DNA from: an uncultured virus (IMG/VR IMGVR_UViG_3300034815_000029)
Lineage: Duplodnaviria > Heunggongvirae > Uroviricota > Caudoviricetes
Virus record (IMG/VR): IMGVR_UViG_3300034815_000029
Reading direction: 5' to 3' (one strand)
DNA: 64,000 bases
The translations under genes were made by a program, and so were the position numbers. The notes under the pieces were generated by a model that did no database searches, was not told where the DNA came from, and worked only from the letters and a program-made list of their open reading frames with translations. Positions 15,815 through 45,000 of the stretch are shown here, one piece after another (the first letter of the stretch is position 1; every line of letters begins with the position of its first letter).

Positions 15815-15821
15815 GCAGACA

Positions 15822-22126: not shown

Positions 22127-22677
22127 CAGCCGAACCTCACCAGCACGCGACGCACGTCGGTGCCTTTTTGCGCCGCCGCCTCGCGCCGGACTTCAGTCAG
22201 CAGCCGGGAGCGCAGCGCCATCAGCGTGGCGGGGTTGTATTCCATGCTGCGATCGGCCAGCGCGGCCTTGACGATGTCGAGCTGCGAGGCCGTGGCCTTG
22301 GAGGTCAGCGCGGCCTCCACCGCATCCAGCATGGTGCGGGCGAAGCTGCGCGCGTCATAGACGGCGTCGGTCTCGAAGTTGTGCAGCACCCTGAGCCGGC
22401 CGGCATCCACCTGGACCCGCTCGCTCGCCGATTCCGCCAGCGCCACCCAGTCGTAGTCGCCGACCGTGTAGGCGGACGTGGTCGCCATGGCCACGGAAAC
22501 GGCATGGTTCACGCCGTCGGCGGCGGCGGCAATGGCAAATTTGGCGGTGGCGTTGCGGAAGTAATACGTCAGCACCCAGGTCGGGGCCGGGTAGTCAGCC
22601 AGATCCTCGCGGCGCCATTTCCAGGTGTCGCCAGCGCGCGCGGAGGTCGGTTCGGTAGTCGGGACGGTTGCGGTCAT
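22126..22677 (-). CDS. Head completion/joining protein
   Basis: AGDTWKW...; between terminase and portal. Confidence 0.65.
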   Translation of the reverse strand: MTATVPTTEPTSARAGDTWKWRREDLADYPAPTWVLTYYFRNATAKFAIAAAADGVNHAVSVAMATTSAYTVGDYDWVALAESASERVQVDAGRLRVLHNFETDAVYDARSFARTMLDAVEAALTSKATASQLDIVKAALADRSMEYNPATLMALRSRLLTEVRREAAAQKGTDVRRVLVRFG

Positions 22678-22684
22678 GTCGAAA

Positions 22685-22732
22685 GCATGGCCTCACCGCG
22701 TCAACTACTTGGGCCGGATGGGTTGCGTTTTT
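22685..22732 (-). promoter_or_regulatory. Putative activator-dependent late promoter, copy 2
   Basis: Same 36-bp element plus CATGCT-N6-ATG. Confidence 0.65.
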
Positions 22733-22761: not shown

Positions 22762-23517
22762 TTAGCCGTCAAAGCATCCGCACGGTATTTCGACCGCGCC
22801 CCTAAACATATCCATCTGTGCATCGTCGTACCTCACTAGGTCGGCCCACGCATACGAGCGGCCAAGACCTTTCACGCTGGTTAGTTTCGCGCCTGCTTCC
22901 ATCGCCAGCGCCCGCTGAATCAAATCCGGGTGCTGGCGCTTCAGTTCCAAAATCTCATGCGGCTTGCTGCTCGGGCAAAAGAAGCAGGCGCTTTTCCCCG
23001 GTTGCGGCAGTCCTGCGCGCCGGATCGCTTCCACACATTCATCGCGTCCCCAATCCCACTCAATCAACGGGTAGCGCGTTTCCTCGTACTTCGCTCGGTG
23101 CGCCTCGCCTGCATCAATGCCGACCCAAAACCACGGCGCGGCTATTCCCTGCGCTTTGAGCCACCGCTTCTGCGGCCTGATCTTGTAGTGGTCGCTGCAA
23201 CTCTTAAAGCCATACGCAATTCCAGGCAGTGCGCCGCGTGTAAGGCAGTCGGCTTCAAGGCTTACCGCTTCCGCTACAGTTACGATCCGAGGAAAACCAA
23301 CCCCTTCGCACCAATCGCTTACCGCGTCCTTGTGGCGGTAGGTTTCCGGCCTCTCGCCTCCGGTATCAGCGAACAAAATCAAGTCAGGTCGCTCGCCGCG
23401 TTCGTGCATGCCTATCAGCATGGCCGTGCTGTTCGTACCAGCTCCGTAGCTCACCACAATAGTCGGCGCTGGCAGTACGGCGGCGTTACTCTCAGTTTCT
23501 TGCAAGTTGTTCTCCAA
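22762..23517 (-). CDS. PAPS-reductase-like (PP-loop, Cys-rich) protein, solitary cassette K (22762-23575)
   Basis: SYGAGTNS, FADTGGE, KSACFFCP, CGCFDG; stop codon inside the GTTAGCC core; start codon uncertain. Confidence 0.8.
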   Translation of the reverse strand: MENNLQETESNAAVLPAPTIVVSYGAGTNSTAMLIGMHERGERPDLILFADTGGERPETYRHKDAVSDWCEGVGFPRIVTVAEAVSLEADCLTRGALPGIAYGFKSCSDHYKIRPQKRWLKAQGIAAPWFWVGIDAGEAHRAKYEETRYPLIEWDWGRDECVEAIRRAGLPQPGKSACFFCPSSKPHEILELKRQHPDLIQRALAMEAGAKLTSVKGLGRSYAWADLVRYDDAQMDMFRGAVEIPCGCFDG

Positions 23518-23521
23518 TGCC

Positions 23522-23581
23522 GGCTAACAAGTCATTCCACCGGACGGCCTTCGGCCGCGCGGTGAATTCCGAGCGTTATCG
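23522..23581 (+). repeat. attC site K (60 bp)
   Basis: GGCTAAC AAGTC ATT[C]CACCG...CGGTGAAT TCCGAGC GTTATCG; R'' complements GTTAGCCG at 22761. Confidence 0.88.
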
Positions 23582-31915: not shown

Positions 31916-32135
31916 GAACCCCATCGCACCATGAACACCGCCCCTACCGGCAATGACCAGCACCAAGGCACGGCCCACGGGTAGACAGCGCGACAGGCCG
32001 CAGGGCGGGCAGCACAGAACTGAAGAACCCGGTAGGCCGGGCGGTAGCTGGACCGTAACAGCCGACTCGGGGGTCCGAAAAATCCCGCCCTGGCCAGGGA
32101 AAACGGCACCAGACAACCCATAACAGGAGAAAACC

Positions 32136-32522
32136 ATGAGCCTGCTACAAAAAACCCTCGACAGCATCGAAGCCGAAGCCGACAAGAAAAGCGCCATCGC
32201 CGTGGCTCACGCCGGGACCATCCATGAACTGGAAACGCTCACCGGAATCCTGAGCGGACTGGGAGCCGGAGAACTCCGGCCCGTCGTGACTTTTCATGAA
32301 CGCACAGAAGACATCCACTCCGCGATGGCGATCGATGTCCGCATCCTGGTGTTCCAGGATCAAGCCGCCACGCTCCGGGCGGTGGATAAATCGGGGCGTA
32401 GCCATACGCTGGAGATCGGCAAAGGCTATGACGGCAGACCCGAAACTACCGTGCGCTTCGAGGGACTGTCCAGCTACATCACGATAATCGACTACGTGCA
32501 CGCAATGGAACAGGCGGCCTGA
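32136..32522 (+). CDS. Early hypothetical protein
   Basis: AGGAG RBS. Confidence 0.7.
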   Translation: MSLLQKTLDSIEAEADKKSAIAVAHAGTIHELETLTGILSGLGAGELRPVVTFHERTEDIHSAMAIDVRILVFQDQAATLRAVDKSGRSHTLEIGKGYDGRPETTVRFEGLSSYITIIDYVHAMEQAA

Positions 32523-32720
32523 ATGCAGACCCTGATCGGCATCCTCGTCCAGCCCTACGAAGAACAGCGCATCAGCCTGCTGATCGAGGGTATGCAGGCG
32601 CAGAAGCACTGGCTGAGTGTGGATGATTGCCTATACGAGATTCTAAACAACGGAATCATCACCTCCGAGGCGCTTTACCGCGCATCGATTAAAAATATGG
32701 AGAACGACCATGCCTATTGA
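32523..32720 (+). CDS. Early hypothetical protein
   Basis: Abuts the previous ORF. Confidence 0.6.
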   Translation: MQTLIGILVQPYEEQRISLLIEGMQAQKHWLSVDDCLYEILNNGIITSEALYRASIKNMENDHAY

Positions 32721-32901
32721 CCAAGTCATCCCGCTCGGCACCGAAACCCGCCCTGAAATCGCGGCCCGCATGGCGCAGGCGCGCGGACTCATGCTGCTGG
32801 TAAAGCAAGCCACCGGACAGATGATCCTGTGCAGCCGCAAACTTCCCGGCTGGCAGCGCTGGATTGTCGCCATTCACACCTACTCACCGGAGGCCGCATG
32901 A
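32710..32901 (+). CDS. Early hypothetical protein
   Basis: GGAG RBS, coupled. Confidence 0.6.
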   Translation: MPIDQVIPLGTETRPEIAARMAQARGLMLLVKQATGQMILCSRKLPGWQRWIVAIHTYSPEAA

Positions 32902-33125
32902 AGCTCATCATCACCGGATTGATTGTTCTCGCCGTCGCTGCCGCCCTGATCGTCAAGAATGCCGATGCGATCGATAGCTATCAGCTCCACAACGACGGCG
33001 TCACCGCCTGCAAACCGCCGCGCAACGAAGCCGAGAAGCTCGTCGCTACGCTCTACAAAAGCGCCGATGGCGGGCCGCTTACGCTGCATTGCGCCTACCA
33101 CGCCACTGTGAGCTTTGCGCTATGA
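32898..33125 (+). CDS. Early protein with signal/TM segment
   Basis: GGAGG RBS, ATGA overlap. Confidence 0.6.
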   Translation: MKLIITGLIVLAVAAALIVKNADAIDSYQLHNDGVTACKPPRNEAEKLVATLYKSADGGPLTLHCAYHATVSFAL

Positions 33126-33346
33126 GCGTAACCCGCTTCCAGATGCTGACACAGGCACAGCGCAACTTGGACATGGCCGACCTGCTGGCAGCCAATGGAG
33201 ACTATGACGGCGCAGCCAGGAACACGGCCGCAGCCAGAGCACTGATTTTCACCGAGAGCACCAACCCGCCCAGCCGGAGCGTGGCGGCAAGCCCGAATAA
33301 CACCGGCAGCTGCAGCGCTGGCCGAGAAAGCCTCCTTACAGCGTGA
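33122..33346 (+). CDS. Early hypothetical protein
   Basis: ATGA overlap. Confidence 0.55.
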   Translation: MSVTRFQMLTQAQRNLDMADLLAANGDYDGAARNTAAARALIFTESTNPPSRSVAASPNNTGSCSAGRESLLTA

Positions 33347-33383
33347 TGCAACCGGCCGCCGGGAGCCGTAATCCCGGCACTTA

Positions 33384-33461
33384 TTTGAACGTAGAGCTAA
33401 CCGGCGGCGCTTTAGCGCCGTCCAGCGACCGAAGGGAGCGAGGTTGAGCGCCTTGTTAGGG
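33384..33461 (-). repeat. attC A (78 bp)
   Basis: Minus strand CCCTAAC AAGGC GCT[C]AACC...GGTTAGC TCTAC GTTCAAA. Confidence 0.88.
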
Positions 33462-33474
33462 GCCAACTGCACGG

Positions 33475-34173
33475 ATGATTGAACTGCTACACACCGACTG
33501 CATGACTTACATGGCGGCGCTGCCAGATGCGGCCTTTGACTTGGCGATTGTTGACCCGCCATACGGGCGCGGCGAGGACGGCGGCACAAACCGATGCCAC
33601 GGCGTGAAGCAGAAGAACGGCGCGGTGCTGCGGTGCCTCGATGGCGGCTACGCGAAGAAGGCTTGGGACAAGGAACCGCCACCGCCTGAGTATTTCGCGG
33701 AACTGCGCAGGGTGGCAAAGCACCAGATTGTTTGGGGTGCGAACTACATGCCGGTGAAACTGCAAGGCGGGGCAATTGTTTGGGACAAGGTGAATGACGG
33801 AGCCGACCAGAGCGGCGCGGAAATAGCCTACTGCAGCTTGAACGAGCGCGTGGACGTGGTGCGCTATATGTGGCGCGGGATGATGCAGGGAGAGGCGGTA
33901 GGCAGCCAACGCCAGCAGGGAAACAAGGCGCTGAACGAGCGCCGGATTCACCCGACACAGAAGCCGGTTAAGTTGTACGAATGGTTGCTGCAGCAGTACG
34001 CGCAGCCGGGAATGAAGGTTTTAGATACCCACCTTGGCAGCGGGAGCGCGGCGATTGCAGCGCACTACTACGGGGTGGATTTTGTGGGGTGCGAGATAGA
34101 TGCCGACTACTGGCTAGCAGCCAAGGAACGGTTTGAGGCTGAAACCCGGCAGATGGCGTTACTTGGCCCCTAA
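33475..34173 (+). CDS. N4C/N6A DNA methyltransferase, cassette A
   Basis: DPPY, HPTQKP, LDTHLGSGS. Confidence 0.9.
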   Translation: MIELLHTDCMTYMAALPDAAFDLAIVDPPYGRGEDGGTNRCHGVKQKNGAVLRCLDGGYAKKAWDKEPPPPEYFAELRRVAKHQIVWGANYMPVKLQGGAIVWDKVNDGADQSGAEIAYCSLNERVDVVRYMWRGMMQGEAVGSQRQQGNKALNERRIHPTQKPVKLYEWLLQQYAQPGMKVLDTHLGSGSAAIAAHYYGVDFVGCEIDADYWLAAKERFEAETRQMALLGP

Positions 34174-34229
34174 CGCATAGGTAAGGGGACTGAGCAACGC
34201 GAAGTTCCCGCTTGACCGCTGAGTTAGGC
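34168..34229 (-). repeat. attC B (62 bp)
   Basis: CCCTAAC...GGTAAGGGGA...TCCCGCTTGACC...GTTAGGC. Confidence 0.9.
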
Positions 34230-34253
34230 GGAATTTTGAAAAAGGAGATGGTC

Positions 34254-34427
34254 GTGGCAAAACTAATAACGTTGAACATTGAGCGATTTGTGGTTTGCAG
34301 CACTGGCGAGGAAATGGAAATACCAGAACCGGCAGACAGTCTTGAAGCCGCGATAAAACTTCGAGACGATAAGCAGGCTGGTGATGAATATGAGACATGG
34401 GAAATTGTGGCGGAAGTTGCCGCCTAA
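34254..34427 (+). CDS. Hypothetical protein, cassette B
   Basis: AAGGAG RBS; stop codon in GCCTAAC. Confidence 0.65.
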   Translation: MAKLITLNIERFVVCSTGEEMEIPEPADSLEAAIKLRDDKQAGDEYETWEIVAEVAA

Positions 34428-34512
34428 CGGCGAAGCTAAGGGGCGCGAGCGATGACAAAACAACGAAGTGAGCCGGATGTTCGAGCGTCACGCCTTGAGC
34501 GCCTTGTTGGGC
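34422..34512 (-). repeat. attC C (91 bp)
   Basis: GCCTAAC...GCTAAGG...CCTTGAGC...GTTGGGC. Confidence 0.82.
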
Positions 34513-34676
34513 GATTGTGGGCATTAGTCTGGAGGCGATGGATGACTGGCCCAGGTGGGCAACCTCGCCGTGTGGTGCGCGTGAAGGGGTGGCGCACTGC
34601 GATTATTGAGAGCGATTGGGAAATGCGGCAGACCATTACGCCATGTTTCTCGATTTTTGGATGGCGGTTTGATTGA
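34452..34676 (+). CDS. Hypothetical protein, cassette C (starts inside the attC loop)
   Basis: ATG at 34452 lies within attC C. Confidence 0.55.
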   Translation: MTKQRSEPDVRASRLERLVGRLWALVWRRWMTGPGGQPRRVVRVKGWRTAIIESDWEMRQTITPCFSIFGWRFD

Positions 34677-34680
34677 TGAC

Positions 34681-34747
34681 GCCCAACGCCTGATTTCACC
34701 GGCCTGAGCGGCTTTTTGCTCAGGTCCGGTGGAATGATTGGTTGGCC
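34681..34747 (-). repeat. attC D (67 bp)
   Basis: GCCCAAC...TTCACCGGCCTGAGC...GCTCAGGTCCGGTGGAA...GTTGGCC. Confidence 0.9.
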
Positions 34748-34775
34748 GGCTGGTAGCTACGAAGTGAGGAATTAA

Positions 34776-35483
34776 ATGGCTGAAAAAGTAACGATAGGGA
34801 CCGCTGAATTGTGGCACGGAGACTGCAGGGAAGTTCTGCCGTTGCTGCCAGACTGCGACCTGATTTTGACAGACCCGCCATACGGCCTGAACGAAGCGGC
34901 CGGAAAGAACCGAAGCCGTGGAAGCGCTGCAGGCGCGAACAAGTGGAAAGGCTCGCGCAACACGACAGGTGTTGGCGTTGCCTCGACGGACTTTGGCGAG
35001 CCGAGCGAATGGGATAGTGCGCCGCCCCCGACGTGGGTGATTGAGATGATGCGCGCCAAGGGGAAATGGCAAGTGATGTTCGGCGGCAACTATTACCCGC
35101 TGCCGCCGGCCAGGTGCTGGCTTGTGTGGGACAAGGACAACGGGGAAACCGATTTCGCGGACTGCGAACTTGCGTGGACGAACTTGCCGAAAGCGGTGCG
35201 CCGGCTGCGCTGGATGTGGAACGGCATGCTGCAGCAGGACATGGCGAACAAGGAAGAACGACAGCACCCGACGCAGAAGCCGGTGCCGGTGATGCGGTGG
35301 GCTTTGCTTCAAGTTCCCGACGCCGAGACGGTTTGCGACCCATTCATGGGCAGCGGAACAACAGGGGTGGCGTGTTGGATGGAAGGGCGGCGGTTCGTCG
35401 GCATTGAGCGCGAACGCCGGTATTTCGATATTGCTTGCGAGCGGATTGCCCGCGCACAGGCACAAGAGCGGCTGTTCGCATGA
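34776..35483 (+). CDS. N4C/N6A DNA methyltransferase, cassette D
   Basis: TDPPY, HPTQKP, DPFMGSGTTG. Confidence 0.92.
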   Translation: MAEKVTIGTAELWHGDCREVLPLLPDCDLILTDPPYGLNEAAGKNRSRGSAAGANKWKGSRNTTGVGVASTDFGEPSEWDSAPPPTWVIEMMRAKGKWQVMFGGNYYPLPPARCWLVWDKDNGETDFADCELAWTNLPKAVRRLRWMWNGMLQQDMANKEERQHPTQKPVPVMRWALLQVPDAETVCDPFMGSGTTGVACWMEGRRFVGIERERRYFDIACERIARAQAQERLFA

Positions 35484-35487
35484 AGAC

Positions 35488-35556
35488 GGCCAACGCAGAG
35501 GTAAGCCGATGACAAAAGCGCAGCTTTTGGCAGTCGGCTTGACCGCCGGGTTAGCC
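35488..35556 (-). repeat. attC E (69 bp)
   Basis: GGCCAAC...GGTAAGCCGA...TCGGCTTGACC...GTTAGCC. Confidence 0.9.
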
Positions 35557-35736
35557 GGGGGCCGAGCCGCACACGAACAATGGGAGCGCACCCGAGGCGA
35601 TGAAAACGAGTGCGATGCAGAGAAACGGCTACACGAAGAGGTTTCAGAAAGTGGCAACACGATACCGAGTGAGTGGTGGCATGGATGGCTCGAACGCTCC
35701 GATGAGTGGCGAGACGAAATCGAACATGCCGGCTAA
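35509..35736 (+). CDS. Hypothetical protein, cassette E (starts inside attC)
   Basis: GAGGT RBS and ATG within attC E; stop codon in GGCTAAC. Confidence 0.55.
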   Translation: MTKAQLLAVGLTAGLAGGRAAHEQWERTRGDENECDAEKRLHEEVSESGNTIPSEWWHGWLERSDEWRDEIEHAG

Positions 35737-35790
35737 CGATTAGCTTAAGGGGCGGCTGTTAAGCCGTCCCGCTTGAAGCGCCGGTTAGGC
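35731..35790 (-). repeat. attC F (60 bp)
   Basis: GGCTAAC...CTTAAGGGGCGGC...GCCGTCCCGCTTGAAG...GTTAGGC. Confidence 0.9.
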
Positions 35791-35804
35791 GCAGAAAGGT
35801 GAAT

Positions 35805-36047
35805 ATGACAGCAAGGCACGAAATAGGGAAGTGGCTGAATGAACAGCCGAACCGCGAGATTGACCGGCGGGTATTGGCCGAGCTATGTGCGGAGCATGAC
35901 CGAATGGCTCATGCCCTGATGACGCTGCTCGGGGAAACCGAGGACAGCGACTACATGAGTGCGGCAGAACAGCGGGCGATGGCGCGGGATGCGCTGCCGC
36001 CTAACGTCGGCGGTAACCGGCTTGCGCCCGCACAGGAGCAACGATGA
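35805..36047 (+). CDS. Hypothetical protein, cassette F (reads into the next attC)
   Basis: AAGGTG RBS; its 3' part is also present at 1-127. Confidence 0.7.
   Translation: MTARHEIGKWLNEQPNREIDRRVLAELCAEHDRMAHALMTLLGETEDSDYMSAAEQRAMARDALPPNVGGNRLAPAQEQR
35880..36006 (+). repeat. 127-bp exact direct repeat, copy 2
   Basis: Identical to 1-127. Confidence 0.97.
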
Positions 36048-36092
36048 AGAACACCCTTGCCGGCGCAAGTCCGGTTGACCAACCAGTTAGGG
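35999..36092 (-). repeat. attC G (94 bp)
   Basis: GCCTAAC...GGTAACCGGCTTGCGCC...GGCGCAAGTCCGGTTGACC...GTTAGGG. Confidence 0.88.
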
Positions 36093-36349
36093 CGCTGCCT
36101 GAGCCGTTGCCGTGCCCGTTTTGTGGGCGACAGCCGGAGCTAGACAACCCGGACACTCTTTACCCGAACGGCACCGGGTGGAAGCCTTGGCGAGGCTTCC
36201 GTTCTTATGTAGGGTTCCGCGAAGTGCCGAAGGAACAATGGTGCTACGGGATGCACTGCTGCGAGTGCTGCGGTGGATGCGGGGCAGAGATTCACGGCGA
36301 TAGTGCAGCCGAGGCGGTAGAGAAGTGGAACCGGCGCCCTAACGCATGA
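36044..36349 (+). CDS. Lar-family restriction alleviation protein, cassette G
   Basis: LPCPFCG...C..CGA...AVEKWNRR; AGGAG RBS and ATG in the attC loop. Confidence 0.8.
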   Translation: MKNTLAGASPVDQPVRALPEPLPCPFCGRQPELDNPDTLYPNGTGWKPWRGFRSYVGFREVPKEQWCYGMHCCECCGGCGAEIHGDSAAEAVEKWNRRPNA

Positions 36350-36401
36350 AATGAGGGGCAGCGCCGCTTTTGCGCTGTCCCGCTCGATTGACGGGTTGTG
36401 C
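36337..36401 (-). repeat. attC H (65 bp)
   Basis: CCCTAAC...AATGAGGGGCAGCGC...GCGCTGTCCCGCTCGATT...GTTGTGC. Confidence 0.9.
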
Positions 36402-36427
36402 GTCAAAACGTAACTACGGAGTGAGGA

Positions 36428-37432
36428 ATGAATGAGTTGGAGCTTTTCGCAGGCGCTGGTGGCGGAATACTCGGGTCAATGTTGCTCGGGCACAGAACCG
36501 TATGCGCCGTTGAATTCGATGCATATGCCAGATCAGTTTTATTGGCCAGACAAGCCGACGGAACATTCCCGACTTTCCCGGTTTGGGACGACGTGCGCAC
36601 CTTTGACGGAACACCGTGGCGCGGAATTGTTGACGTGGTTTCGGGAGGTTTCCCGTGCCAGGATTTGTCGGTTGCGGGGAAAGGGGCAGGACTTGATGGA
36701 AAGCGCAGCGGATTGTGGCGAGAAATGGCGCGGATCATTGGCGAAGTACGACCCCGCTACGCATTCATTGAAAACAGCCCAGCTCTCATTACTAGAGGAC
36801 TTGACCGGGTGCTCTGTGATCTTGCCGCGCTCGGGTTTGATGCGCGATGGGGTGTGCTCGGAGCTTCCGATGTTGGCGCTCCGCACAAGCGCGAGAGAAT
36901 CTGGATATTGGGCTACTCCCGCAGCTTCGGACGGGACACGGGGAGGAAAAATCACCGACAAGATGACGGGGCAATCATTGGTTCAGATGGTCAACACGCC
37001 AGCGAAGTGGCCGACACCAACGGCGAGCGACCACACGGGGCCGGGATATGCCGCGCAGGGCGGGTTGAATTTGAGGACGGCGGTTGCTCTATGGCCAACC
37101 CCGACAGTCTGCGGGAACTACAACCGCAATGGAGCGAGTGCATCGAGCGGGGATGGGTTGGCAACTGCTGTTCGGACGTGGCCAACAGCAACAGCATACA
37201 AGGGCTGGAGTCAGAAACACAACCGAGCGAACACGGACGACCGGCTGGATTATTCGGTGGAACGCGAGAATTTCAGCATTGGCCAGCAGACCCCGCCGAT
37301 GCGCCTGAATCCAAATTGGGTCGAGTGGTTGATGGGTTGGCCAATCGGGCAAACAGAATTAAAGCCATTGGAAACGGGCAGGTTCCGAGAGTTCGAGCAG
37401 CAGCATGGCGGATTTTGACGCACAACGGCTGA
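36428..37432 (+). CDS. C5 cytosine DNA methyltransferase (alpha polypeptide), cassette H
   Basis: LFAGAGG, GGFPCQD, IENS, HKRERIW, IGNGQVP. Confidence 0.92.
   Translation: MNELELFAGAGGGILGSMLLGHRTVCAVEFDAYARSVLLARQADGTFPTFPVWDDVRTFDGTPWRGIVDVVSGGFPCQDLSVAGKGAGLDGKRSGLWREMARIIGEVRPRYAFIENSPALITRGLDRVLCDLAALGFDARWGVLGASDVGAPHKRERIWILGYSRSFGRDTGRKNHRQDDGAIIGSDGQHASEVADTNGERPHGAGICRAGRVEFEDGGCSMANPDSLRELQPQWSECIERGWVGNCCSDVANSNSIQGLESETQPSEHGRPAGLFGGTREFQHWPADPADAPESKLGRVVDGLANRANRIKAIGNGQVPRVRAAAWRILTHNG
36432..37418 (+). CDS. Overlapping +1-frame ORF, putative beta polypeptide of the MTase
   Basis: Open along the whole gene; WPTP repeats; motif IX-like LNPNWVEWLMGWP. Confidence 0.65.
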   Translation: MSWSFSQALVAEYSGQCCSGTEPYAPLNSMHMPDQFYWPDKPTEHSRLSRFGTTCAPLTEHRGAELLTWFREVSRARICRLRGKGQDLMESAADCGEKWRGSLAKYDPATHSLKTAQLSLLEDLTGCSVILPRSGLMRDGVCSELPMLALRTSARESGYWATPAASDGTRGGKITDKMTGQSLVQMVNTPAKWPTPTASDHTGPGYAAQGGLNLRTAVALWPTPTVCGNYNRNGASASSGDGLATAVRTWPTATAYKGWSQKHNRANTDDRLDYSVERENFSIGQQTPPMRLNPNWVEWLMGWPIGQTELKPLETGRFREFEQQHGGF

Positions 37433-37504
37433 GGTAACCCGGCCGCGCCGCTTTTGGCGCGGTCCGGTGAGCGAAGCGAACGAAGGTTGACCGATGGGTT
37501 AGAA
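37420..37504 (-). repeat. attC I (85 bp)
   Basis: GCACAAC...GGTAACC...GGTTGACC...GTTAGAA. Confidence 0.85.
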
Positions 37505-37525
37505 GGCATTTTGATCGGAGCGAAC

Positions 37526-37864
37526 ATGAACATAGCAGAAGCGGCGGAGTGGCTTGAGCAAATGAGCAGCGAGAAGGCCGCACAGATTGTGCTTGAGCAC
37601 TACCACCTGAAACAGCACTTGTGCGCCCAACGCCTCGGCGTGCCGACCGGCTGCGACGATTGGGTTGCGCGCGCCATTGAACGCGGCGAACACCTGCGGG
37701 AATGCGAAATGCAACTGCGGCTGCTGCTCGACAAGGGGAGCGCGATGCTGGCGGAAGTGAAGTGGAAGACGCGCCACACGGAATGCACCAACTGCCGAGG
37801 CACCGGCCGCACTGGCGAAAATGCTTGCTGCATCTGTCGCGGGACGGGCGCTCGTGCCTTCTAA
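37526..37864 (+). CDS. Protein with DnaJ-type CxxCxGxG zinc finger, cassette I
   Basis: CTNCRGTG...CCICRGTG. Confidence 0.75.
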   Translation: MNIAEAAEWLEQMSSEKAAQIVLEHYHLKQHLCAQRLGVPTGCDDWVARAIERGEHLRECEMQLRLLLDKGSAMLAEVKWKTRHTECTNCRGTGRTGENACCICRGTGARAF

Positions 37865-37924
37865 CGCTGGCGTAACCGGCGCGGAGCCGAAGGCGGAGCG
37901 TCCGCGTTGACGCAAATGTTAGGC
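37859..37924 (-). repeat. attC J (66 bp)
   Basis: TTCTAAC...GCGTAAC...GTTGACGC...GTTAGGC. Confidence 0.85.
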
Positions 37925-37935
37925 ATGGAGTGACG

Positions 37936-38286
37936 ATGAAAGTAAAAGATTGGCACGAACCCAAAGACCAAATGTGCAACTTGGGGCGGCATAGTTGGAG
38001 CGTGCCGCGCCTGTTTGAGCTTGCGCGAGAACTCCCGGTGATGGACGTTCCGCTCAACCACCTGAGCCTGTACTACACCTACGAGAAGCTGACGCTTCGG
38101 GAAATGGTGATGCACATGCGTGCGGTCAATGACGCCGACCTAGAGAAGCCCATCATTTTGGACGAGGACGGGGAACTGATGGACGGACGGCATAGGCTGA
38201 TGAAGGCGATGCTGCTAGGAAACGAAACGATTAAGGCGGTACGGTTCGACGAAAACCCGTCGCCGTGCCAAGTGCGAGATGCCTAA
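37936..38286 (+). CDS. ParB/Srx N-terminal-like protein, cassette J
   Basis: PIILDEDGELMDGRHRL. Confidence 0.78.
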   Translation: MKVKDWHEPKDQMCNLGRHSWSVPRLFELARELPVMDVPLNHLSLYYTYEKLTLREMVMHMRAVNDADLEKPIILDEDGELMDGRHRLMKAMLLGNETIKAVRFDENPSPCQVRDA

Positions 38287-38346
38287 CTTAAAGTAGGCGT
38301 CATGCCGTGCATTAACTAATCGAGCAAAACCAATACAGGAGCCAAC

Positions 38347-38550
38347 ATGCCAAGCTTTAAGCCGGACTTGAGAATCACCGTACAAATTGGCGAAGCATCA
38401 TTCTCCATCGGCGGTTTGCTCCTGCCGGATGGCCGGTATCTTATCAAGCGAGGTCGGGTTATTTCCAAGAAAATGCCACGCGCCAGCCTGACAAAGATAT
38501 TTGAAGTGGCTCGTAAGTGGGCGGTTAATCAACGAAACATGGCTAGATAG
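38347..38550 (+). CDS. Hypothetical basic protein
   Basis: AGGAG RBS. Confidence 0.6.
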   Translation: MPSFKPDLRITVQIGEASFSIGGLLLPDGRYLIKRGRVISKKMPRASLTKIFEVARKWAVNQRNMAR

Positions 38551-38554
38551 TTTT

Positions 38555-38720
38555 CATGCTTACTTGATATATTGCCAGCTTGCTAGGCTGCCTTCTTGCT
38601 GGCTTGCAATCTTGCCAGCTTGCTGGTTGGCCTACTTACTGACTAGTTTTATTGCTTGCTGCATGGCTGGATTGCTGGCTTACAAAACGGCTTGCTTGTT
38701 ATCTGATTTGTCTGCTACAA
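38555..38720. repeat. Degenerate short-period repeat tract, putative parS centromere
   Basis: Many TTGC/TGCT/GGCT units directly upstream of parA. Confidence 0.6.
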
Positions 38721-38750
38721 ATACAGTATGTCGTCACCACTGGAAAAATA

Positions 38751-39395
38751 ATGGCTCAGATATTCGCCGTTGCAAACACCAAGGGGGGAGTGGGCAAGAC
38801 CACTACCGCCGTACATTTCGCCGCCTGGCTGTCGTACCGCGGCAGAACCCTGCTGATCGACACCGACAAGCAGGCCACGGCAGGCTCATGGTCGAGCTGG
38901 CGCCGGGATAACTCCCTGTCGCATAATCCCGACACCGTGCTGCTTCTCAATGACATGGTAGCCAAGGAGGGGAGGGCGCTGGCCAAGGGCTACGATTACG
39001 TGGTGATCGATGCCGGTGGCAAGGACAACCAGGGTATGCGCTACGCCATGCTGATCGCCGATAAGGTGATCGTGCCAATGTCGCACTCGAATTTCGATTC
39101 CGCAGCCTGGACCGACATGTCCGAGATCATCGAGGGCGCGAGGATCAATAACCCGAATCTGGCCGTTCAGGTGTTCATGTCCCGCATCGACACCCGGCGC
39201 CGGCCGCCGCAGGATCTGCGCGACTACCTGGCCGAGCAGCAGGTTTCCGTGGCTGATACACAGATCCCGGAGCGTGCCGCCGTCCTCGCCGCAACAGACC
39301 GGGGCATGGCTGTGTTCGAGATCCGCAAGTCGAGCCCGGAGGCGATCGCCTTCGATGATCTGTTCAACGAGATCATGGGAGGCCAGCATGGTTAA
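38751..39395 (+). CDS. parA: Short (type Ib) ParA ATPase
   Basis: KGGVGKTT, LIDTDKQ, YVVIDAGG; no N-terminal HTH. Confidence 0.9.
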   Translation: MAQIFAVANTKGGVGKTTTAVHFAAWLSYRGRTLLIDTDKQATAGSWSSWRRDNSLSHNPDTVLLLNDMVAKEGRALAKGYDYVVIDAGGKDNQGMRYAMLIADKVIVPMSHSNFDSAAWTDMSEIIEGARINNPNLAVQVFMSRIDTRRRPPQDLRDYLAEQQVSVADTQIPERAAVLAATDRGMAVFEIRKSSPEAIAFDDLFNEIMGGQHG

Positions 39396-39735
39396 GGGTA
39401 AGCCGGACTTATCGCACCTCACACCTTCAGCTATCGAGTTCGCCCAGGCCGCAGACAAGCCAATTATTCCGCCTCGAACAATGGCTGAGATTTTCTCTGC
39501 CGAAACAGAGCCGGCTGCGCGCAAGCACGATAAACAACAAGACCGCATTGCGCCACTCCAGGAGGGCAAGGTAGCCGCGCCGTTGCGTCTGGCCCCATCC
39601 GTACAGCAAAGAATCCGCCGGCTGGTATTCGAGCAGTCAGAGCGGCTAGGGGTGAGGGTGACGGCACAGGACTTCATGGAGTCGGCCATCATGGAAAGAT
39701 TGAGCCGGGAAGAAAAGAAGGTTGATCGTGCGTAG
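39388..39735 (+). CDS. Putative small centromere-binding protein (RHH-like)
   Basis: Overlaps the parA stop; flexible N-terminus and beta-alpha-alpha-like C-terminus. Confidence 0.6.
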   Translation: MVKGKPDLSHLTPSAIEFAQAADKPIIPPRTMAEIFSAETEPAARKHDKQQDRIAPLQEGKVAAPLRLAPSVQQRIRRLVFEQSERLGVRVTAQDFMESAIMERLSREEKKVDRA

Positions 39736-40608: not shown

Positions 40609-40659
40609 ATCCATGTCTTGCAGCTCTGCTATGATTCAGGCGTGAAGAAGGGGAGGGGT

Positions 40660-41496
40660 ATGGCATCGGAACTGGAAGAACGGGTTAAACAGATGGCCGC
40701 TCGTGCAAAGACCGTGGCTGTAGAGACTACGCTGCAGCTCCCGCTATGGCGCGAGGACGTGCGCGGACTGCCTAATTCGCTTGCCCGGTCCGCCCTGTTC
40801 AATGTCGCCAACAAGAAAAAACAGCGCGAGTTCTTCAAGAAGAAGCTGATCGCCTCGGTCAAGGGCGTCGAGATCGTCTACCAGGGCGAAGAGCTGCGCC
40901 AGATGGACGAGGATGTATTTCTGCAGATGCTGCACATATCCCGGATGCAACCGCTGGGCGAGTGGGTCGAGTTCAAGGCGCACGCCTTCCTGAAGGCCCT
41001 TGGCTGGTCACCGAACAGTCGATCCTATGACCGGCTGCGCGAGTGCCTGATACGCTTGTCTACCACGACTCTGACGGTGAAATTCGCGGACGGCAAGCAG
41101 GGCTACGGCGGCTCGCTGGTGCGGAAATTCGCCTGGACGGAAGAGGACGGCGCAACAAAGCTGCAATTCTGGCGCGTCTGGCTGGAAAAGGAAATCATCA
41201 GCCTGTTCGGGCCGGTTGATTACACCCGTCTGGATTGGGAGCAGCGCCTGAGTCTGCCGCCCCTGGCCAAGTGGTTACACGCTTTCTACTTCACCCACAG
41301 AGAACCGCTTCCGTACAAGGTGGAAACCCTGAAAACCCTGTGTGGATCTGACGCCAAGACGGTTTACCATTTCCGCAGCGACCTGAAAGCGGCACTGCAG
41401 ATCCTGAAGGACATCGCTTTCCTGTCAGACTGGCAGCTCGACAGCCGGACCGACACGGTACGCGTGGTGAGGAACTTCAAGAACCTCGTGCATTGA
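40660..41496 (+). CDS. trfA: TrfA-family plasmid replication initiator
   Basis: QLPLW clamp-type motif, PNSLARSALF, YQGEELRQ.DEDV, LAKWLHAFY.TH..P. Confidence 0.85.
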   Translation: MASELEERVKQMAARAKTVAVETTLQLPLWREDVRGLPNSLARSALFNVANKKKQREFFKKKLIASVKGVEIVYQGEELRQMDEDVFLQMLHISRMQPLGEWVEFKAHAFLKALGWSPNSRSYDRLRECLIRLSTTTLTVKFADGKQGYGGSLVRKFAWTEEDGATKLQFWRVWLEKEIISLFGPVDYTRLDWEQRLSLPPLAKWLHAFYFTHREPLPYKVETLKTLCGSDAKTVYHFRSDLKAALQILKDIAFLSDWQLDSRTDTVRVVRNFKNLVH

Positions 41497-41857: not shown

Positions 41858-42046
41858 ATGGACAATGCCGTAATCCCGCTCTTTGTCGTCGCGTTTGCTG
41901 GCTATGTGTATTACGTGGCCAGGATGGACAAGAGCGACCAGGAGTCGCACCTGTTCAAAGTCTGGATAGGACTGGCCCTGATGGGCGTCGCTTCCCTGGT
42001 GCTGACAGCAATCTTCCCGGAATTACGGGGTAGCGGGGGTGGATAG
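41858..42046 (+). CDS. Small two-TM membrane protein
   Basis: Two hydrophobic segments. Confidence 0.5.
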   Translation: MDNAVIPLFVVAFAGYVYYVARMDKSDQESHLFKVWIGLALMGVASLVLTAIFPELRGSGGG

Positions 42047-45000
42047 CGCGCGCACCTTATCGTTGAACTTGGTCATCTTCGCGGTAATCTGCGCCTCGAT
42101 CTGCTTGATCTGCGCTCTCGGCGCTTCTTTTTCGATCAGCATCCGCTTCTGCTTGTTCAAGTGGCGCACAATATTCTCCGCTTCGTTGGCCGGTCCGATC
42201 AGTTTGGATTCTGGATTGTCGGTAATGTAGCTGCGGTACTCTTCGTGATGGGTGGCGCGCCCCTTGATTTCCGCTTCGTGGCCATTAATCCGCTTCAGGT
42301 TGTCGTAGAAGCGCCCAGCCTGGCTCGCGCCTTCTTCGGCGTCGCCGTATAACCTGCCCAGCAATGGGCGCTTGTAAGCCGGCAATTCCTCTCCACTGAA
42401 CATCGATTCCCCGGACTGTACTACCTTGGACGCCTCGCGTCCGACGCCGCCGGTTACCTGCCCGATCAGGTAGTCGATCTGGTCCGGCGTCGGGCTGGCC
42501 TTGCCGGGCTGGTAATCTGTGCCGCCGGTCAGGGTGTTGATCGCCTCCGCGGCCCAGCGCGCGTAGAAGCTGCTGGTATTTTTGGCACGGGTGAAGCCTG
42601 GCGTCGGGTTCATGCCGTTCCGTTCCTCACGGTAGATCGGCTTACCGGTCCAGTCCTTATTTTCAGCCAGCGCCGCAATCGGGTCGATCAGCGTCGGGGT
42701 GATGGTTTGCAATGCCGTTGCGCTGCCTATCGGGTTGAATGCGCTCATCAGTATACCGAGCAGCTGCGCCGCCTTGTCGCCTGGATGCCTGAATCCGCCC
42801 AGCGCCAGTTCGGTCGCCAGCCGTCCGATGTTGGGGATGACGTGCAGACCGAGCGGCATGGGGATAGTCAGGTAATTCTTTTTTCCGGATACCGGCGTGA
42901 GCGGAATAATGATGTTGCGCTCGCGCACGAATTCAGGTGGCTCGTCGTCATCGAATCCCGCCATCGCCAGCGCCAGCGCTTGCATCACGCCGATGGTCAG
43001 ACCGCCGAGGATGATCTTCTTACCGGCTGGCCCTTTGAGTGCTTCCGCCATCCGCGCCGTTCCCTGCATCGAGGCGTTGAAGAAGGCGTACAGCGCGCCG
43101 GCCTGTGAGCCCATTCTCCCCTTCCTATTAAAATTAACTGTCAGCGTCTTGGCCAGACTAGCGGCGCGCGGCTTGCTCATGCCGTTATCGATCGCCGTCT
43201 TGTAGGCTGCCAGGCGTACCGAGTTCTCCATGGTTTCGTTGTAGTCAGAAAGCCAATCAAATATCGCCCGGCCAGCGTGCTTGAGCTTTCCTTCGCTGAT
43301 CTGAGCAATCTCGCTTTGCAGCGCCTTGGCACGGTCCTCGCTGGTGCGGAACAGTTCGCTATAGCCAGTGGTGCCGCCTTCGTTCTGCATTTCTTCCCAC
43401 AGCGTCGCCCACTTCGAGGATGGGGTAACGCCCTTGCGGTGATCGCGGATATCCGAATAGATCCCGCGCATCGCAGACAGGGTGTGCTGCAGCACTTCTT
43501 TCTGGTGTCCGGCAATCGGCGTTGATGAAAGGTTGACCAGCGCCCCCTGGATGTCTCGGGTGACGTTCATCAGGCCGAAAATCGGATTGTATTGGGTATT
43601 GATGCTGGCGAAGTAGCGGGTACCCTTGGCGGCCAGCCCGAGTACATGGCCCAGGTCGTCCATGTCCAGGTTCTTCATCGCCGCCGCCATCCTCATGGCG
43701 CGCTCGTCGCGCTCGTTGAACACAACGGCATGCTCTTCCACCTTGCCGGTTTGCGGGTTGACCATGCGCGAAACCACGACATTCTCTCGGCTCTTGAATA
43801 GCGGGTCTGCCTGCGTTACAACGGTATTGGTATCCTCGTCCAGCACGCGCTGAGAGGGGGCCTTGTCGGCGGTCCAGAAGTCCGGGTTTGGGTTGGTCTT
43901 GGCCAGCCCGTACAGCGCCAGCGCCACCCGGTTCTTCTCGCCGCGGACTACGGCGCGCTCGCGCTGCATGGCGATGTTGCCGATGATGTCCACCACCTTG
44001 CGCTTGCTGCCCGTCCGCGCCTTGCTGGATGATCCGCGCACAGAGAAGCCCTGCCCGGTTCCCGGGCCACTGCCGACATCCTCGCGGAACAGCGGGACGT
44101 AATGCTGGTAGGCATCAGACCAGGATTGAATGGTATCGCCCGACTCGATCCGGTAGTCAACCAGTGTCTGGCGCGTCTTGGCGATCATCGCGTCCACCTT
44201 GCCGGCCAGCAGGGAGAGGGTTTTCTTGCGCTCCGGCGCCAGTCCATTCAGGTAGTCGTCGGCCTCCTGGTTGGTCATGCCTGAACCGCCGTCCTGCATA
44301 TCCGGGTTACCAGGATTGATGTCGGCAATGTGCTGGTTCGCTTCCTTGGCGTGGCGGGCGTGCAGATATTCCTCCATCTGCGCAATATCCACCCCGCGCT
44401 GAGTCATTTCCACCAGCAGCGGCTTCAGCTCCTGTGTCTGGAAATCGGAAACCCGCTTGGCGGTGCGTTTGTGGTACAACTCTTCCTGCAAGTAGGGGTC
44501 GAATGAATCCTTGATCTGTCCGTTCTTGTTGATCGCCTCGATCACGCGCTTGGTATCGACGTGCTTGTCCTGCAGCTCGTAGATGATGTTATCCATCTTC
44601 GACGCTTCAGGCGCATCCCAAGCGGATTGATTGACGTGAGGTGTTGCGTTGAGACCTAGACCGCCTTGACGCGGGGTAATGGGTGCAGGTTTGCCGGGGA
44701 TATTTAGGTTGGCTTGACGGCTGGCCAGCGCCACATTCTCCCCGCCAATAGCTTTCAGTTCGCCGCCATCGATGACGTGCCGCCCAGCTTTAGCCAGCAG
44801 CGCTATCACATCTGAATCCGTCCACTTGTCGGTAATGCCCCACTGGCGCAGCTTGCCCATGATGTAGGCAACAATCCTCTTCCAGCCGTTGAGCTTTTCG
44901 ATGGCGACTTCACCCGGCATGTCGGCCAAGACTTCTTCAGTGGCCAGCGCGGCATCATAGCCGTACTGCTTCATCAGCTTGTCAGCCTCGATGCGCACGC

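What the first reader, a model, noticed from the sequence alone, without database searches (positions are those of the whole stretch)
33384..38292. Phage-borne integron-type cassette array: ten early genes, each with its own attC, and no intI
Seen: ten 60-94 bp imperfect palindromes (33384, 34168, 34422, 34681, 35488, 35731, 35999, 36337, 37420, 37859) separate ten consecutive genes. Each has AAC...GTT core boxes, short spacers and the extra C in L''. The sites differ from one another, so this is not a simple repeat family. Established: this is the attC (59-be) architecture recombined by IntI as a folded single strand. Inference: the phage's variable early region is built and reshuffled by cassette recombination using an IntI supplied in trans, presumably by the host. 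I do not know of a formal description of such arrays made of ordinary phage genes, but cannot check the literature here.
Basis: partly seen in the sequence, partly recalled or inferred. Interest (0 to 1): 0.95.

Follow-up and report, generated by a model that had tools for sequence, protein, structure and literature searches.

The report
Phage gene-cassette arrays with reversed attC sites
The ten hairpins are genuine integron-type attC recombination sites that package phage anti-restriction genes as swappable cassettes, a kind of array already reported in phages, but here each gene faces the opposite way to normal relative to its attC site.

Summary
All ten sites exist at the stated coordinates and are attC sites. 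A covariance model trained only on attCs of plasmid R46 and phage TJE1 hits 8 of 10 and only one other place in 64 kb. A model built from window sites finds all 4 R46 attCs. The window holds 13 sites in all.

Cassettes carry three DNA methyltransferases, a weak Lar-like match and small unknowns. No IntI is in the window.

- **Not new as a kind.** Phage attC clusters with methyltransferase cargo are published (Qi et al. 2023, PMC9892861).
- **Polarity is reversed.** The recombinogenic bottom strand is the coding strand, so each cassette reads attC-RBS-ORF-TAA|C.
- **The ten-cassette array is probably an assembly composite.** Two co-occurring phages share one 100% identical cassette, and contig depth drops 3-5 fold at 36006.
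- **Related phages carry IntI.** 72 IMG/VR contigs encode IntI. All 169 attC hits, in 47 of them, lie on the intI strand. The window's array ends keep the first 6-9 bases of their attI.
- **Cassette-precise breakpoints are seen.** They appear within the window, in relatives and in metagenome contigs.

Verdict: real, and a new variant of a known kind.

The parts
33358..33378 (+). Terminator-like GC hairpin followed by a T-rich run. The R'' of site 1 (TTTGAAC) lies in that run. This marks the left edge of the array.
   Evidence: top terminator-like hit. Homology to the array-less relative G007 ends at the AAC of site 1.
33384..33461 (+). attC 1, bottom strand on +. Its R'' comes from the phage flank and is not complementary to R'.
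   Evidence: 14 bits, E 0.67; 28.2 bits, E 3e-5
33475..34173 (+). Cassette 1 ORF: N6/N4 DNA methyltransferase, 232 aa. Its stop codon is the TAA of CCCTAAC.
   Evidence: PF01555, 2.4e-17; phrog_23224, 1.3e-50
34168..34229 (+). attC 2
   Evidence: 40.2 bits, held out of model R1; 21.2 bits
34212..34427 (+). Cassette 2 ORF, 59-71 aa, unknown function. An in-frame ATG lies at 34248 after AAGGAG.
   Evidence: no family
34422..34512 (+). attC 3. The start codon of cassette 3 (34452) lies in its loop.
   Evidence: 54.7 bits. Not found by R2.
34452..34676 (+). Cassette 3 ORF, 74 aa, unknown function
34681..34747 (+). attC 4
   Evidence: DNA fold z -4.2; 44.7 bits, held out; 20.1 bits
34776..35483 (+). 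Cassette 4 ORF: N6/N4 DNA methyltransferase, 235 aa
   Evidence: PF01555, 2.2e-19; phrog_67, 2e-47
35488..35556 (+). attC 5. Its L arms (GGTAAGCCGA / TCGGCTTGACC) are nearly those of the bottom strand of the R46 orfD attC.
   Evidence: z -5.4; 32.5 bits, held out; 36.2 bits, best R2 hit
35509..35736 (+). Cassette 5 ORF, 75 aa, unknown function; it starts inside the attC 5 loop
35731..35790 (+). attC 6
   Evidence: 60.7 bits; 21.6 bits. A Logan contig boundary lies at 35725-35739.
35799..36047 (+). Cassette 6 ORF, 82 aa, unknown function. The cassette ends at CCTAA|C (36005). 35880-36006 is repeated 100% at window 1-127.
35999..36092 (+). attC 7. The start codon of the Lar-like ORF lies in its loop.
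   Evidence: 50.7 bits; 18.9 bits
36044..36349 (+). Cassette 7 ORF, 101 aa, weak Lar-like restriction-alleviation match
   Evidence: PF14354, 3.6e-6, 27.5 bits, below the 28.6 cut-off; phrog_599, 2.5e-8
36337..36401 (+). attC 8
   Evidence: 70.7 bits. Not found by R2.
36428..37432 (+). Cassette 8 ORF: C5 cytosine DNA methyltransferase, 334 aa
   Evidence: PF00145, 8e-32; phrog_363, 4.4e-65. Homologues sit in IntI-bearing arrays.
37420..37504 (+). attC 9, with an 18-nt insertion in the 3' arm
   Evidence: 45.5 bits; 25.3 bits
37526..37864 (+). Cassette 9 ORF, 112-136 aa, unknown function
37859..37924 (+). attC 10
   Evidence: 28.7 bits, held out; 34.1 bits
37930..38286 (+). Cassette 10 ORF, 118 aa (phrog_17560, unknown function). 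attC 10 plus this ORF recurs as a unit in the unrelated complete phage record G002.
   Evidence: (window 37862-38287 matches L002 9933-10355 at 85%, the only shared DNA)
38282..38293 (+). Right edge of the array: a lone GCCTAA|C followed by TTAAA, which matches the first bases of the attI of related phage integrons
1..1055 (+). End of a second array. 1-127 is the tail of a cassette-6 copy. It is followed by attC 120-178, ORF 200-691, attC 693-751 and ORF 774-1040. The edge is GCCGAA|C followed by TTAAATTC, so the junction CTTAAATTC is 9 of 9 identical to the start of attI in L140 and L141.
   Evidence: (58.1 and 63.2 bits)
22764..23581 (-). Single cassette in the head module, read on the - strand. 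attC 23581-23522 is followed by a 251-aa ORF (23517-22762) with a weak PAPS-reductase-like match. The cassette ends at GGCTAA|C followed by TTAAAA.
   Evidence: 27.6 bits; PF01507, E 0.0015, below cut-off; 17.7 bits
2283..3269 (+). Phage-type tyrosine integrase; not an integron integrase
   Evidence: (TIGR02249, 30.4 bits against the 265 cut-off)

Best explanation
The region is an integron-type gene-cassette array without its own integrase (a CALIN). It sits in the leftward early operon of a lambda-like temperate phage, probably of Betaproteobacteria.

Each unit is one cassette, written on the coding strand as AA|C-attC-ribosome-binding site-ORF-...(T)AA|C. The attC sites are oriented so that the strand IntI recombines (the bottom strand, with extrahelical G and T) is the coding strand. 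This is the opposite of class 1 integrons and of phage TJE1.

Known cargo is anti-restriction: two N6/N4 and one C5 orphan DNA methyltransferase, plus a weak Lar-like match. The rest is unknown.

Shown here:
- attC identity.
- Reversed polarity.
- Absence of IntI in the window.
- Cassette-precise sharing and breakpoints.
- Related phages that carry IntI and attI directly downstream of arrays of the same attC type.

Inferred:
- The window's arrays descend from such a phage integron, or were seeded at attI-like sites, because their ends keep the first 6-9 bases of that attI.
- Cassettes are excised and inserted by an IntI supplied in trans, from a co-resident IntI-bearing prophage or a host integron. 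The bottom strand would be exposed as single-stranded DNA during replication, recombination or transcription.
- The genes are expressed by read-through from the phage early promoter, each from its own ribosome-binding site.
For: 1. Independent model. R2 was trained only on the bottom strands of 3 R46 and 3 TJE1 attCs. It gives 9 hits at E<=1 in the 64 kb on both strands.

2. Reciprocal test. R1 was built from 7 window sites. It finds the 5 held-out window sites, 4 of them at E<=1.5e-4. It finds all 4 attCs of the R46 class 1 integron and nothing else in 50 kb of R46.

3. Polarity.
- R46 and TJE1 attCs match only on the strand opposite their genes.
- Window sites match only on the gene strand. 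In a relative's array (L002) the same places score under 10 bits on the wrong strand.
- Direct reading of real attCs shows the extra C on the 5' arm of the gene strand. The window has the extra G on the 3' arm.

4. The mobile unit is the upstream attC plus the ORF.
- L002 shares only window 37862-38287.
- The copy at window 1-127 matches 35880-36006 and diverges after AACG.
- Metagenome contigs branch at 35725-35739 and at 36006, and continue into window 128 onward.
- At least four different left flanks join at 33388/33389.

5. An array-less complete relative, G007, loses homology at the AAC of site 1.

6. Covariation in 37 attCs of relatives.
- 88.8% of cells are paired, against 75.1% in shuffles (0 of 500 shuffles reach the observed value).
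- 12 of 16 pairs show changes on both sides.
- Slid controls give 30-46% paired.

7. IntI in relatives.
- IntI scores over the cut-off in 2 of 5 genomes holding TerL relatives, once on the same 19.7-kb contig as TerL.
- 72 IMG/VR contigs encode relatives of that IntI.
- 169 of 169 R1 hits, in 47 of those 72 loci, lie on the intI strand, almost all upstream of intI.

8. Homologues of window cassettes lie inside IntI-bearing arrays on the bottom strand: the 200-691 ORF in L168, and the C5 methyltransferase in L139 and L141.

9. L140 and L141 are about 99% identical. They differ by indels bounded by attCs and by replaced cassettes next to attI, with homology resuming exactly at AA|C.

10. AACTTAAA occurs 4 times in the window, 3 of them at cassette right edges.
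Against: - No recombination was observed directly. All evidence is comparative.
- R1 scores site 1 weakly (14 bits, E 0.67) and finds 0 of 3 TJE1 attCs.
- R2 misses sites 3 and 8 and both sites at the window start.
- Only 5 of 10 MFE folds are clearly better than shuffles (z below -2.7), and z is about 0 for site 3.
- The alignment behind the covariation count was fitted to the model.
- Reversed polarity is not universal in relatives.
  - By ORF length, 19 of 30 intervals in IntI-less relatives favour the bottom strand.
  - In IntI-bearing arrays ORF length gives 52 for and 54 against.
  - A codon log-odds test gives 49 for, 12 against and 47 unclear, out of 108.
- The physical ten-cassette array is doubtful.
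- The host is not identified. The window's own assembly is not held, so an IntI elsewhere in the genome cannot be excluded.
- A terminator-like hairpin precedes the array, so read-through expression is an assumption.
Confidence: 0.8

Rival explanations
1. Dead relic. The arrays are fossils of a phage integron that lost intI and most of attI. The attCs persist only as intergenic spacers, and cassettes no longer move in this phage.
For: No IntI in the window. Only 6-9 bases of attI remain at the array ends. Site 1 is degenerate in R1. Zero of 5 array-bearing viral records have IntI, including one complete genome.
Against: Cassette 6 is 100% identical in two genomic contexts in the same samples, with junctions at the core sites. 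Several alternative left joins occur at 33388/33389. The extrahelical G is kept in 13 of 13 sites. IntI-bearing relatives share cassettes with the window.
Confidence: 0.12
2. The hairpins are RNA or transcription elements of the early operon, such as intrinsic terminators, RNase III processing sites or mRNA stabilisers. They only resemble attC.
For: They are intergenic, co-oriented with the genes and would be transcribed. Some contain start codons in their loops.
Against: None of the 10 is called terminator-like; none has a T-run. They match models of true attCs strand-specifically. Breakpoints between genomes fall at AA|C, not at stem bases. The same sites sit next to IntI and attI in relatives.
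Confidence: 0.03
3. Not phage-borne. The array is part of a bacterial chromosomal integron wrongly joined or binned with phage DNA.
For: The window is at least partly a composite assembly. Two MAGs with TerL relatives carry IntI.
Against: The array is flanked on both sides by phage or plasmid-type genes. Contigs of 4 of 4 runs link the left phage flank to the array. A complete 37-kb phage record with terminal repeats (G002) carries 7 such sites. Arrays in G008 lie between RecT or nuclease genes and a phage integrase.
Confidence: 0.03

Closest known systems
attC clusters lacking an integrase (CALINs) in bacteriophage genomes. Source: Qi, Rajabal, Ghaly, Tetu and Gillings 2023, Front Microbiol, PMC9892861. 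I read the abstract, sections 2.1 and 3.4, and passages; the supplements were not opened.
   Same: attC arrays without intI inside phage genomes. DNA methyltransferases are among the cargo. One array lies just downstream of a terminator. Their phage attCs were recombined by IntI1 in 5 of 6 tests.
   Different: - Their illustrated TJE1 array has 3 attCs and 4 ORFs. Here there are about 8 cassettes in one phage and at least 5 in the other.
- TJE1 has canonical polarity, checked here. Here the ORFs lie on the bottom strand.
- Here the array ends keep an attI core, and IntI-bearing sister phages are numerous.
- Their Supplementary Table S1, which lists the other CALINs, was not seen and could hold larger or reversed arrays.
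Class 1 mobile integron: the intI1-attI1-cassette array of plasmid R46 (NC_003292)
   Same: Same attC anatomy: AAC/GTT cores, 5-6 nt unpaired spacers, and L arms with an extrahelical G. The models cross-detect each other's sites. The bottom strand lies on the intI strand, upstream of intI, as in the IntI-bearing phage relatives.
   Different: R46 has intI1, attI1 and a promoter driving ORFs on the top strand, with resistance cargo. The window has no intI, its ORFs lie on the bottom strand, and its cargo is phage anti-restriction genes.
Complete integrons on temperate-phage contigs found here (L127 in a Rhodocyclaceae MAG; 72 IMG/VR contigs such as L140 and L141)
   Same: Same attC type, at 25-61 bits with R1. 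Shared cassettes. The same CTTAAATTC... junction. The same position, between early genes and the phage integrase.
   Different: They keep the full attI and intI directly downstream of, and co-directional with, most classifiable cassette ORFs. The window's arrays stop 6-9 bases into attI.
Sedentary chromosomal integrons as stores of anti-phage defence cassettes (Darracq et al. 2024 preprint, 10.1101/2024.07.02.601686; listing and passages seen)
   Same: Integron cassettes used as an exchangeable arsenal in the phage-bacterium conflict.
   Different: That is the bacterial side, with defence genes in canonical integrons. Here it is the phage side, with counter-restriction genes.

Membership tests
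integron attC site | Inverse core and core boxes (R'' ...AAC and R' GTT...) that pair with each other | tested here: met
   AAC and GTT are invariant in 10 of 10. At least 6 of 7 bases are complementary in 6 of the 10 sites as delimited here. Strict RYYYAAC/GTTRRRY holds in only 1 of 10. The end site 1 pairs only at AAC/GTT, as expected for a site whose outer half comes from the flank.
integron attC site | L''/L' stem with extrahelical bases on one strand, separated from the R boxes by an unpaired central spacer | tested here: met
   A perfect 6-bp L stem with one extra G in 10 of 10. Spacers are 5-7 nt and 5-6 nt. The same geometry was read in R46 and TJE1 attCs.
integron attC site | Match to a covariance model of accepted attC sites (the IntegronFinder/HattCI type of test) | tested here: met
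   R2, built from 6 R46 and TJE1 attCs, hits 8 of 10 sites at E<=0.016, with one other hit in 64 kb. IntegronFinder's own model was not available.
integron attC site | Recombined by IntI as a folded bottom strand | not testable with these tools
   No experiment was possible. Support is indirect only: breakpoints at AA|C.
integron gene cassette array | One (rarely two) ORF per attC, with units bounded at the G|TT crossover | tested here: met
   Ten ORFs for ten attCs. Unit boundaries are seen.
complete integron | intI and attI adjacent to the array | tested here: not met
   No IntI in the window. Only the first 6-9 bases of the relatives' attI remain. Hence this is a CALIN. The rest of the genome could not be searched.
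canonical cassette orientation | ORF on the attC top strand, followed by its attC | tested here: not met
   In 12 of 12 window intervals the longer ORF is on the bottom strand, with Pfam support for 4 of them. Controls are the opposite: R46 and TJE1.
intrinsic terminator or REP-like intergenic hairpin | GC stem followed by a T-run, or a near-identical repeat family | tested here: not met
   None of the 10 is called terminator-like. The sites differ in sequence, with 46% mean column identity.

The most novel reading that the evidence does not exclude
A large and, by my searches, undescribed family of temperate-phage integrons exists in which cassettes are built the other way round. The ORF lies on the attC bottom strand, transcribed toward attI and intI. 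Co-infecting phages would use this system to trade counter-defence genes such as methyltransferases, Lar-like and NADAR proteins. The window's intI-less arrays, and a single cassette inserted at an attI-like TTTAAG|TT site in the head module, would be offshoots that depend on IntI from sister phages.
Probability: 0.55. Interest if true: 0.8.

Novelty: new variant of a known kind. Interest (0 to 1): 0.62.

Why it matters
Integrons are known as bacterial devices for stockpiling resistance genes and, more recently, anti-phage defence genes. This window, with its relatives, suggests that temperate phages run the same machinery for the opposite purpose. They package orphan methyltransferases and other host-takeover genes as cassettes and exchange them between unrelated phages in the same sediment community.

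The reversed gene polarity means phage cassettes would be silent in a classical bacterial integron, and bacterial cassettes silent in a phage array. That is a testable barrier between the two cassette pools.

It also gives a concrete site-specific mechanism for part of the mosaicism of phage accessory regions, and a ready source of small candidate counter-defence genes.

Tried and rejected
- A strict RYYYAAC...GTTRRRY regex found 1 site. A box-complementarity scan alone was not discriminating, with 55 hits per strand.
- MFE folding of single sites recovers the attC fold in only some cases.
- MAFFT alignments A1-A3 were too poorly registered in the 5' arm to model. I used the seven sites with 6-nt spacers instead (A4).
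- blastn against GenBank phages gave only methyltransferase-gene matches and no related array.
- The 85-aa ORF left of the array has no relatives in IMG/VR.
- No exact empty site was found. G007 differs on the right side as well.
- ORF length is an unreliable strand call in this GC-rich DNA. In L141 it picked the antisense frame of the C5 methyltransferase.
- The right flanks of the two arrays are unrelated beyond AACTTAAA.
- A deletion variant lacking cassettes 4-5 was suspected from depth (64.7, 48.3, 68.4), but no joint is listed. This is left open.
- The window's own assembly is not held.
- One literature term was rejected by the tool and not replaced.

Full report
**1. Observation**

The ten imperfect palindromes are in the sequence at exactly the stated starts. 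On the + strand each reads as follows:
- four bases plus AAC;
- an unpaired spacer of 5-7 nt;
- a stem arm;
- a variable loop;
- the complementary arm interrupted by one extra G, and often a further T or G;
- a 5-6 nt spacer;
- GTT plus four bases.

My scanner requires a perfect 6-bp L stem with one bulged base. It finds all ten on the + strand, with the bulged base being G in 10 of 10. With at least two outer R pairs also required, the window gives 10 hits against 0.9 expected (30 Markov shuffles, maximum 3).

The models add a third, at 23522-23581 on the - strand. None of the ten is terminator-like.

**2. Are they attC sites?**

I fetched accepted attCs for comparison:
- the class 1 integron of plasmid R46;
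- the array of Tetrasphaera phage TJE1. Qi et al. tested two TJE1 attCs among six phage attCs; five of the six recombined with IntI1 (PMC9892861, section 3.4).

Model R1 was built from seven window sites. It recovers the five held-out window sites:

| Site | Bits |
|---|---|
| s4 | 44.7 |
| s2 | 40.2 |
| s5 | 32.5 |
| s10 | 28.7 |
| s1 | 14 (E 0.67) |

R1 also recovers all four R46 attCs (26.6-35.4 bits), with no other hit in 50 kb of R46. It finds 0 of 3 TJE1 sites.

The independent model R2 was trained only on three R46 and three TJE1 bottom strands. It gives nine hits at E<=1 in the whole window. It misses sites 3 and 8 and the two sites at the window start.

In 37 attCs from relatives, the modelled pairs behave as follows:
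- 88.8% of cells are paired, against 75.1% in shuffles (0 of 500 shuffles reach the observed value).
- 12 of 16 pairs show changes on both sides.
- Slid controls give 30-46% paired.
- The alignment was fitted to the model, which favours it.

**3. Polarity**

In R46 and TJE1 the gene strand carries the extra C on the 5' L arm, for example GGT C AAG ... CTTACC in the orfD attC. In the window the gene strand carries the extra G on the 3' arm, GGTAAG ... CTT G ACC. That is the sequence of the orfD bottom strand.

Both my scanner and R1 find R46 and TJE1 sites only on the strand opposite their genes, and window sites only on the gene strand. In a relative's array (L002) the same places score under 10 bits on the other strand.

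The genes are certainly on the + strand. Three methyltransferases and the Lar-like ORF have family matches there. In 12 of 12 intervals the longer ORF is on that strand, and in 5 of 10 the stop codon is the TAA of the next ..TAAC box. So each cassette is attC first and gene second, ending at AA|C. This is the mirror image of a classical cassette.

**4. What moves is exactly this unit**

Four comparisons agree.

(a) A complete 37-kb phage record (G002, seen through locus L002) shares nothing with the window except 37862-38287, at 85% identity. That stretch is attC 10 plus ORF 10 up to GCCTAA. In G002 the unit sits in a five-cassette array and is followed by a further attC.

(b) Window 1-127 is 100% identical to 35880-36006. 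The two copies diverge right after ..CCTAACG into different attCs and genes.

(c) Logan contigs of four sediment runs were laid on 32000-39500:
- They break at 35725-35739 and at 36006.
- In X3 a contig runs from 36006 straight into window 128-157.
- In X1, X2 and X4 the deeper contigs continue into the 693-751 attC and the gene behind it.
- At 33388/33389, the AA|C of site 1, contigs from all four runs join four different left sequences.

(d) G007 is a complete relative whose integrase is 94% identical and which has no attC hit. It is homologous up to the AAC of site 1 and then carries another gene.

**5. The ten-cassette array is probably composite**

Contig depth on either side of 36006:

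| Run | Left of 36006 | Right of 36006 |
|---|---|---|
| X1 | 48-68 | 13-22 |
| X2 | 13.8 | about 0-7 |
| X4 | 10.7 | about 0-1.6 |

Together with the 35,879-bp spacing of the repeat, this suggests two genomes:
- **Phage A** is a lambda-like genome of about 36 kb, corresponding to window 1-35879. It encodes an integrase, tail, capsid, portal, terminase, DnaB and a CII-like protein. Its array would hold cassettes 1-6 plus the two at the window start.
- **Phage B** is a second element with ParA, TrfA and a 4626-aa polyvalent protein. Its array would hold cassettes 6-10.

Depth from contigs is rough, and a true minor recombinant is not excluded. Either way the conclusion about the sites stands. 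The identical cassette 6 in two contexts points to recent exchange.

**6. Where is the integrase?**

The window has none. The 328-aa recombinase scores 30 bits against the 265-bit IntI cut-off, and tblastn with a phage IntI finds nothing. None of five array-bearing viral records has one, including the complete G002.

However, IntI is present close by in relatives:
- TerL relatives lie in Betaproteobacteria: 85% identity in a Pseudomonadota MAG, 65% in a Rhodocyclaceae MAG, and 53-60% in Achromobacter, Verticiella, Thauera and others.
- The two closest genomes each encode an IntI over the cut-off, at 454 and 481 bits. The other three do not.
- In the Rhodocyclaceae MAG the IntI is on the same 19.7-kb contig as Nu1, TerL, Mor and a phage integrase.
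- On that contig the gene strand reads flank-attC-ORF-attC-ORF-AA|C-attI-like sequence-intI.
- 72 IMG/VR contigs encode relatives of this IntI at 46-86% identity.
- R1 gives 169 hits in 47 of them. All 169 are on the intI strand, and nearly all lie upstream of intI. There are up to 11 hits per locus.
- One such locus (L141) has ParB, SSB, a phage integrase and a Dam methylase behind intI.

Window cassettes have homologues inside these arrays on the bottom strand.

L140 and L141 are about 99% identical. They differ by indels bounded by attCs and by different cassettes next to attI. Homology resumes exactly at AA|C followed by TTAAATTCAACGAC....

The window's three right edges read AA|C followed by TTAAATTC, TTAAAG and TTAAAA. 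AACTTAAA occurs only four times in the window. The arrays therefore end in the first 6-9 bases of that attI.

**7. How general is the reversed polarity?**

| Set | Method | Bottom strand | Opposite | Unclear |
|---|---|---|---|---|
| IntI-less relatives, 30 intervals | ORF length | 19 | 11 (opposite or tied) | - |
| IntI-bearing arrays, 108 intervals | ORF length | 52 | 54 | 2 ties |
| IntI-bearing arrays, 108 intervals | Codon log-odds | 49 | 12 | 47 |

ORF length is uninformative in the IntI-bearing arrays, and it demonstrably errs in L141. The codon test was trained on long ORFs; its controls behave as expected, with R46 scoring opposite and the window scoring bottom strand. All six homology-supported cassettes inside arrays are on the bottom strand. 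I read this as a strong but not absolute tendency.

**8. Mechanism**

Established knowledge: IntI binds the folded bottom strand of attC, guided by the extrahelical bases. It excises cassettes by attC x attC recombination and inserts them at attI or, less well, at attC or GTT secondary sites.

Shown here: the sites, their strand, the cassette-precise junctions, and IntI- and attI-bearing sister phages.

Inferred:
- Cassettes of this phage are moved by an IntI made in trans by a co-resident phage or by the host.
- The array arose from a phage integron by loss of intI, or by insertion at attI-like TTTAAG|TT sites. The single PAPS-reductase-like cassette in the head module argues that such insertions occur.
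- Genes are expressed from the phage early promoter, each with its own ribosome-binding site behind its attC.
- Because the bottom strand is the non-template strand, transcription as well as replication could expose it. This last point is speculation.

**9. Comparison with the literature and novelty**

Five literature searches returned one directly relevant paper, Qi et al. 2023. It reports 3 integrons, one In0 element and 17 CALINs in 10,705 phage genomes. It also notes methyltransferase cargo and shows recombination by IntI1.

The existence of phage-borne attC arrays, and the idea that they carry counter-restriction genes, are therefore known. I did not find the following in print in those searches:
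- the reversed coding polarity;
- arrays of this size;
- the attI remnant;
- the many IntI-bearing temperate-phage contigs;
- direct metagenomic evidence of cassette exchange between phages.

Their supplements were not opened and might bear on array size and polarity. I therefore class this as a new variant of a known kind.

Noticed in passing
window 42023-55903 (-): A single 4626-aa ORF with LPD38, Eco57I/N6 methylase and helicase domains. It is a 'large polyvalent protein' of the type linked to counter-defence in phages and conjugative elements.
   Followed up: partly
window 38652-39395 and 40618-41496 (+): ParA partition ATPase and a TrfA-type replication initiator lie directly right of the array. 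The second element may therefore be a phage-plasmid.
   Followed up: no
window 22764-23581 (-): A lone attC plus a 251-aa PAPS-reductase-like ORF is inserted between a small head gene and the next gene. It is bounded by GATAA|C and by GGCTAA|C followed by TTAAAA, so it is a single cassette outside any array.
   Followed up: partly
window 36006 (and 35725-35739): There is a 3-5 fold step in contig depth, with contig branch points in four sediment runs. The window is probably a chimeric path through a cassette shared by two phages.
   Followed up: partly
window 15807-15869 and 22670-22732: A 63-nt direct repeat (89% identity) that ends in a T-run. One copy lies just beyond the single cassette's right edge.
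   Followed up: no
window 6353-7094 vs 61378-62116: Tail-region genes of the two halves of the window are 73% identical. The two elements are therefore partly related and probably share a host.
   Followed up: no
L127 1440-1500 and 3125-3190: In the Rhodocyclaceae prophage contig, a roughly 50-nt attI-like sequence occurs twice. One copy is upstream of intI; the other follows a cassette that lies downstream of intI. Cassettes thus flank intI on both sides.
   Followed up: partly
L127 18354-18881; L141 4513-5325: Cassettes in relatives encode a NADAR domain protein (1.4e-28) and a weak DHH/DHHA1 phosphoesterase-like protein. Both are candidate counter-defence enzymes.
   Followed up: no
L140 vs L141: Two IntI-bearing phage contigs, about 99% identical, differ by extra cassettes flanked by near-identical attC copies, and by a replaced pair of cassettes next to attI.
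   Followed up: partly
window 33358-33378: The array starts immediately after a terminator-like hairpin. Qi et al. remark on the same placement for the TJE1 array (PMC9892861 section 3.4).
   Followed up: no
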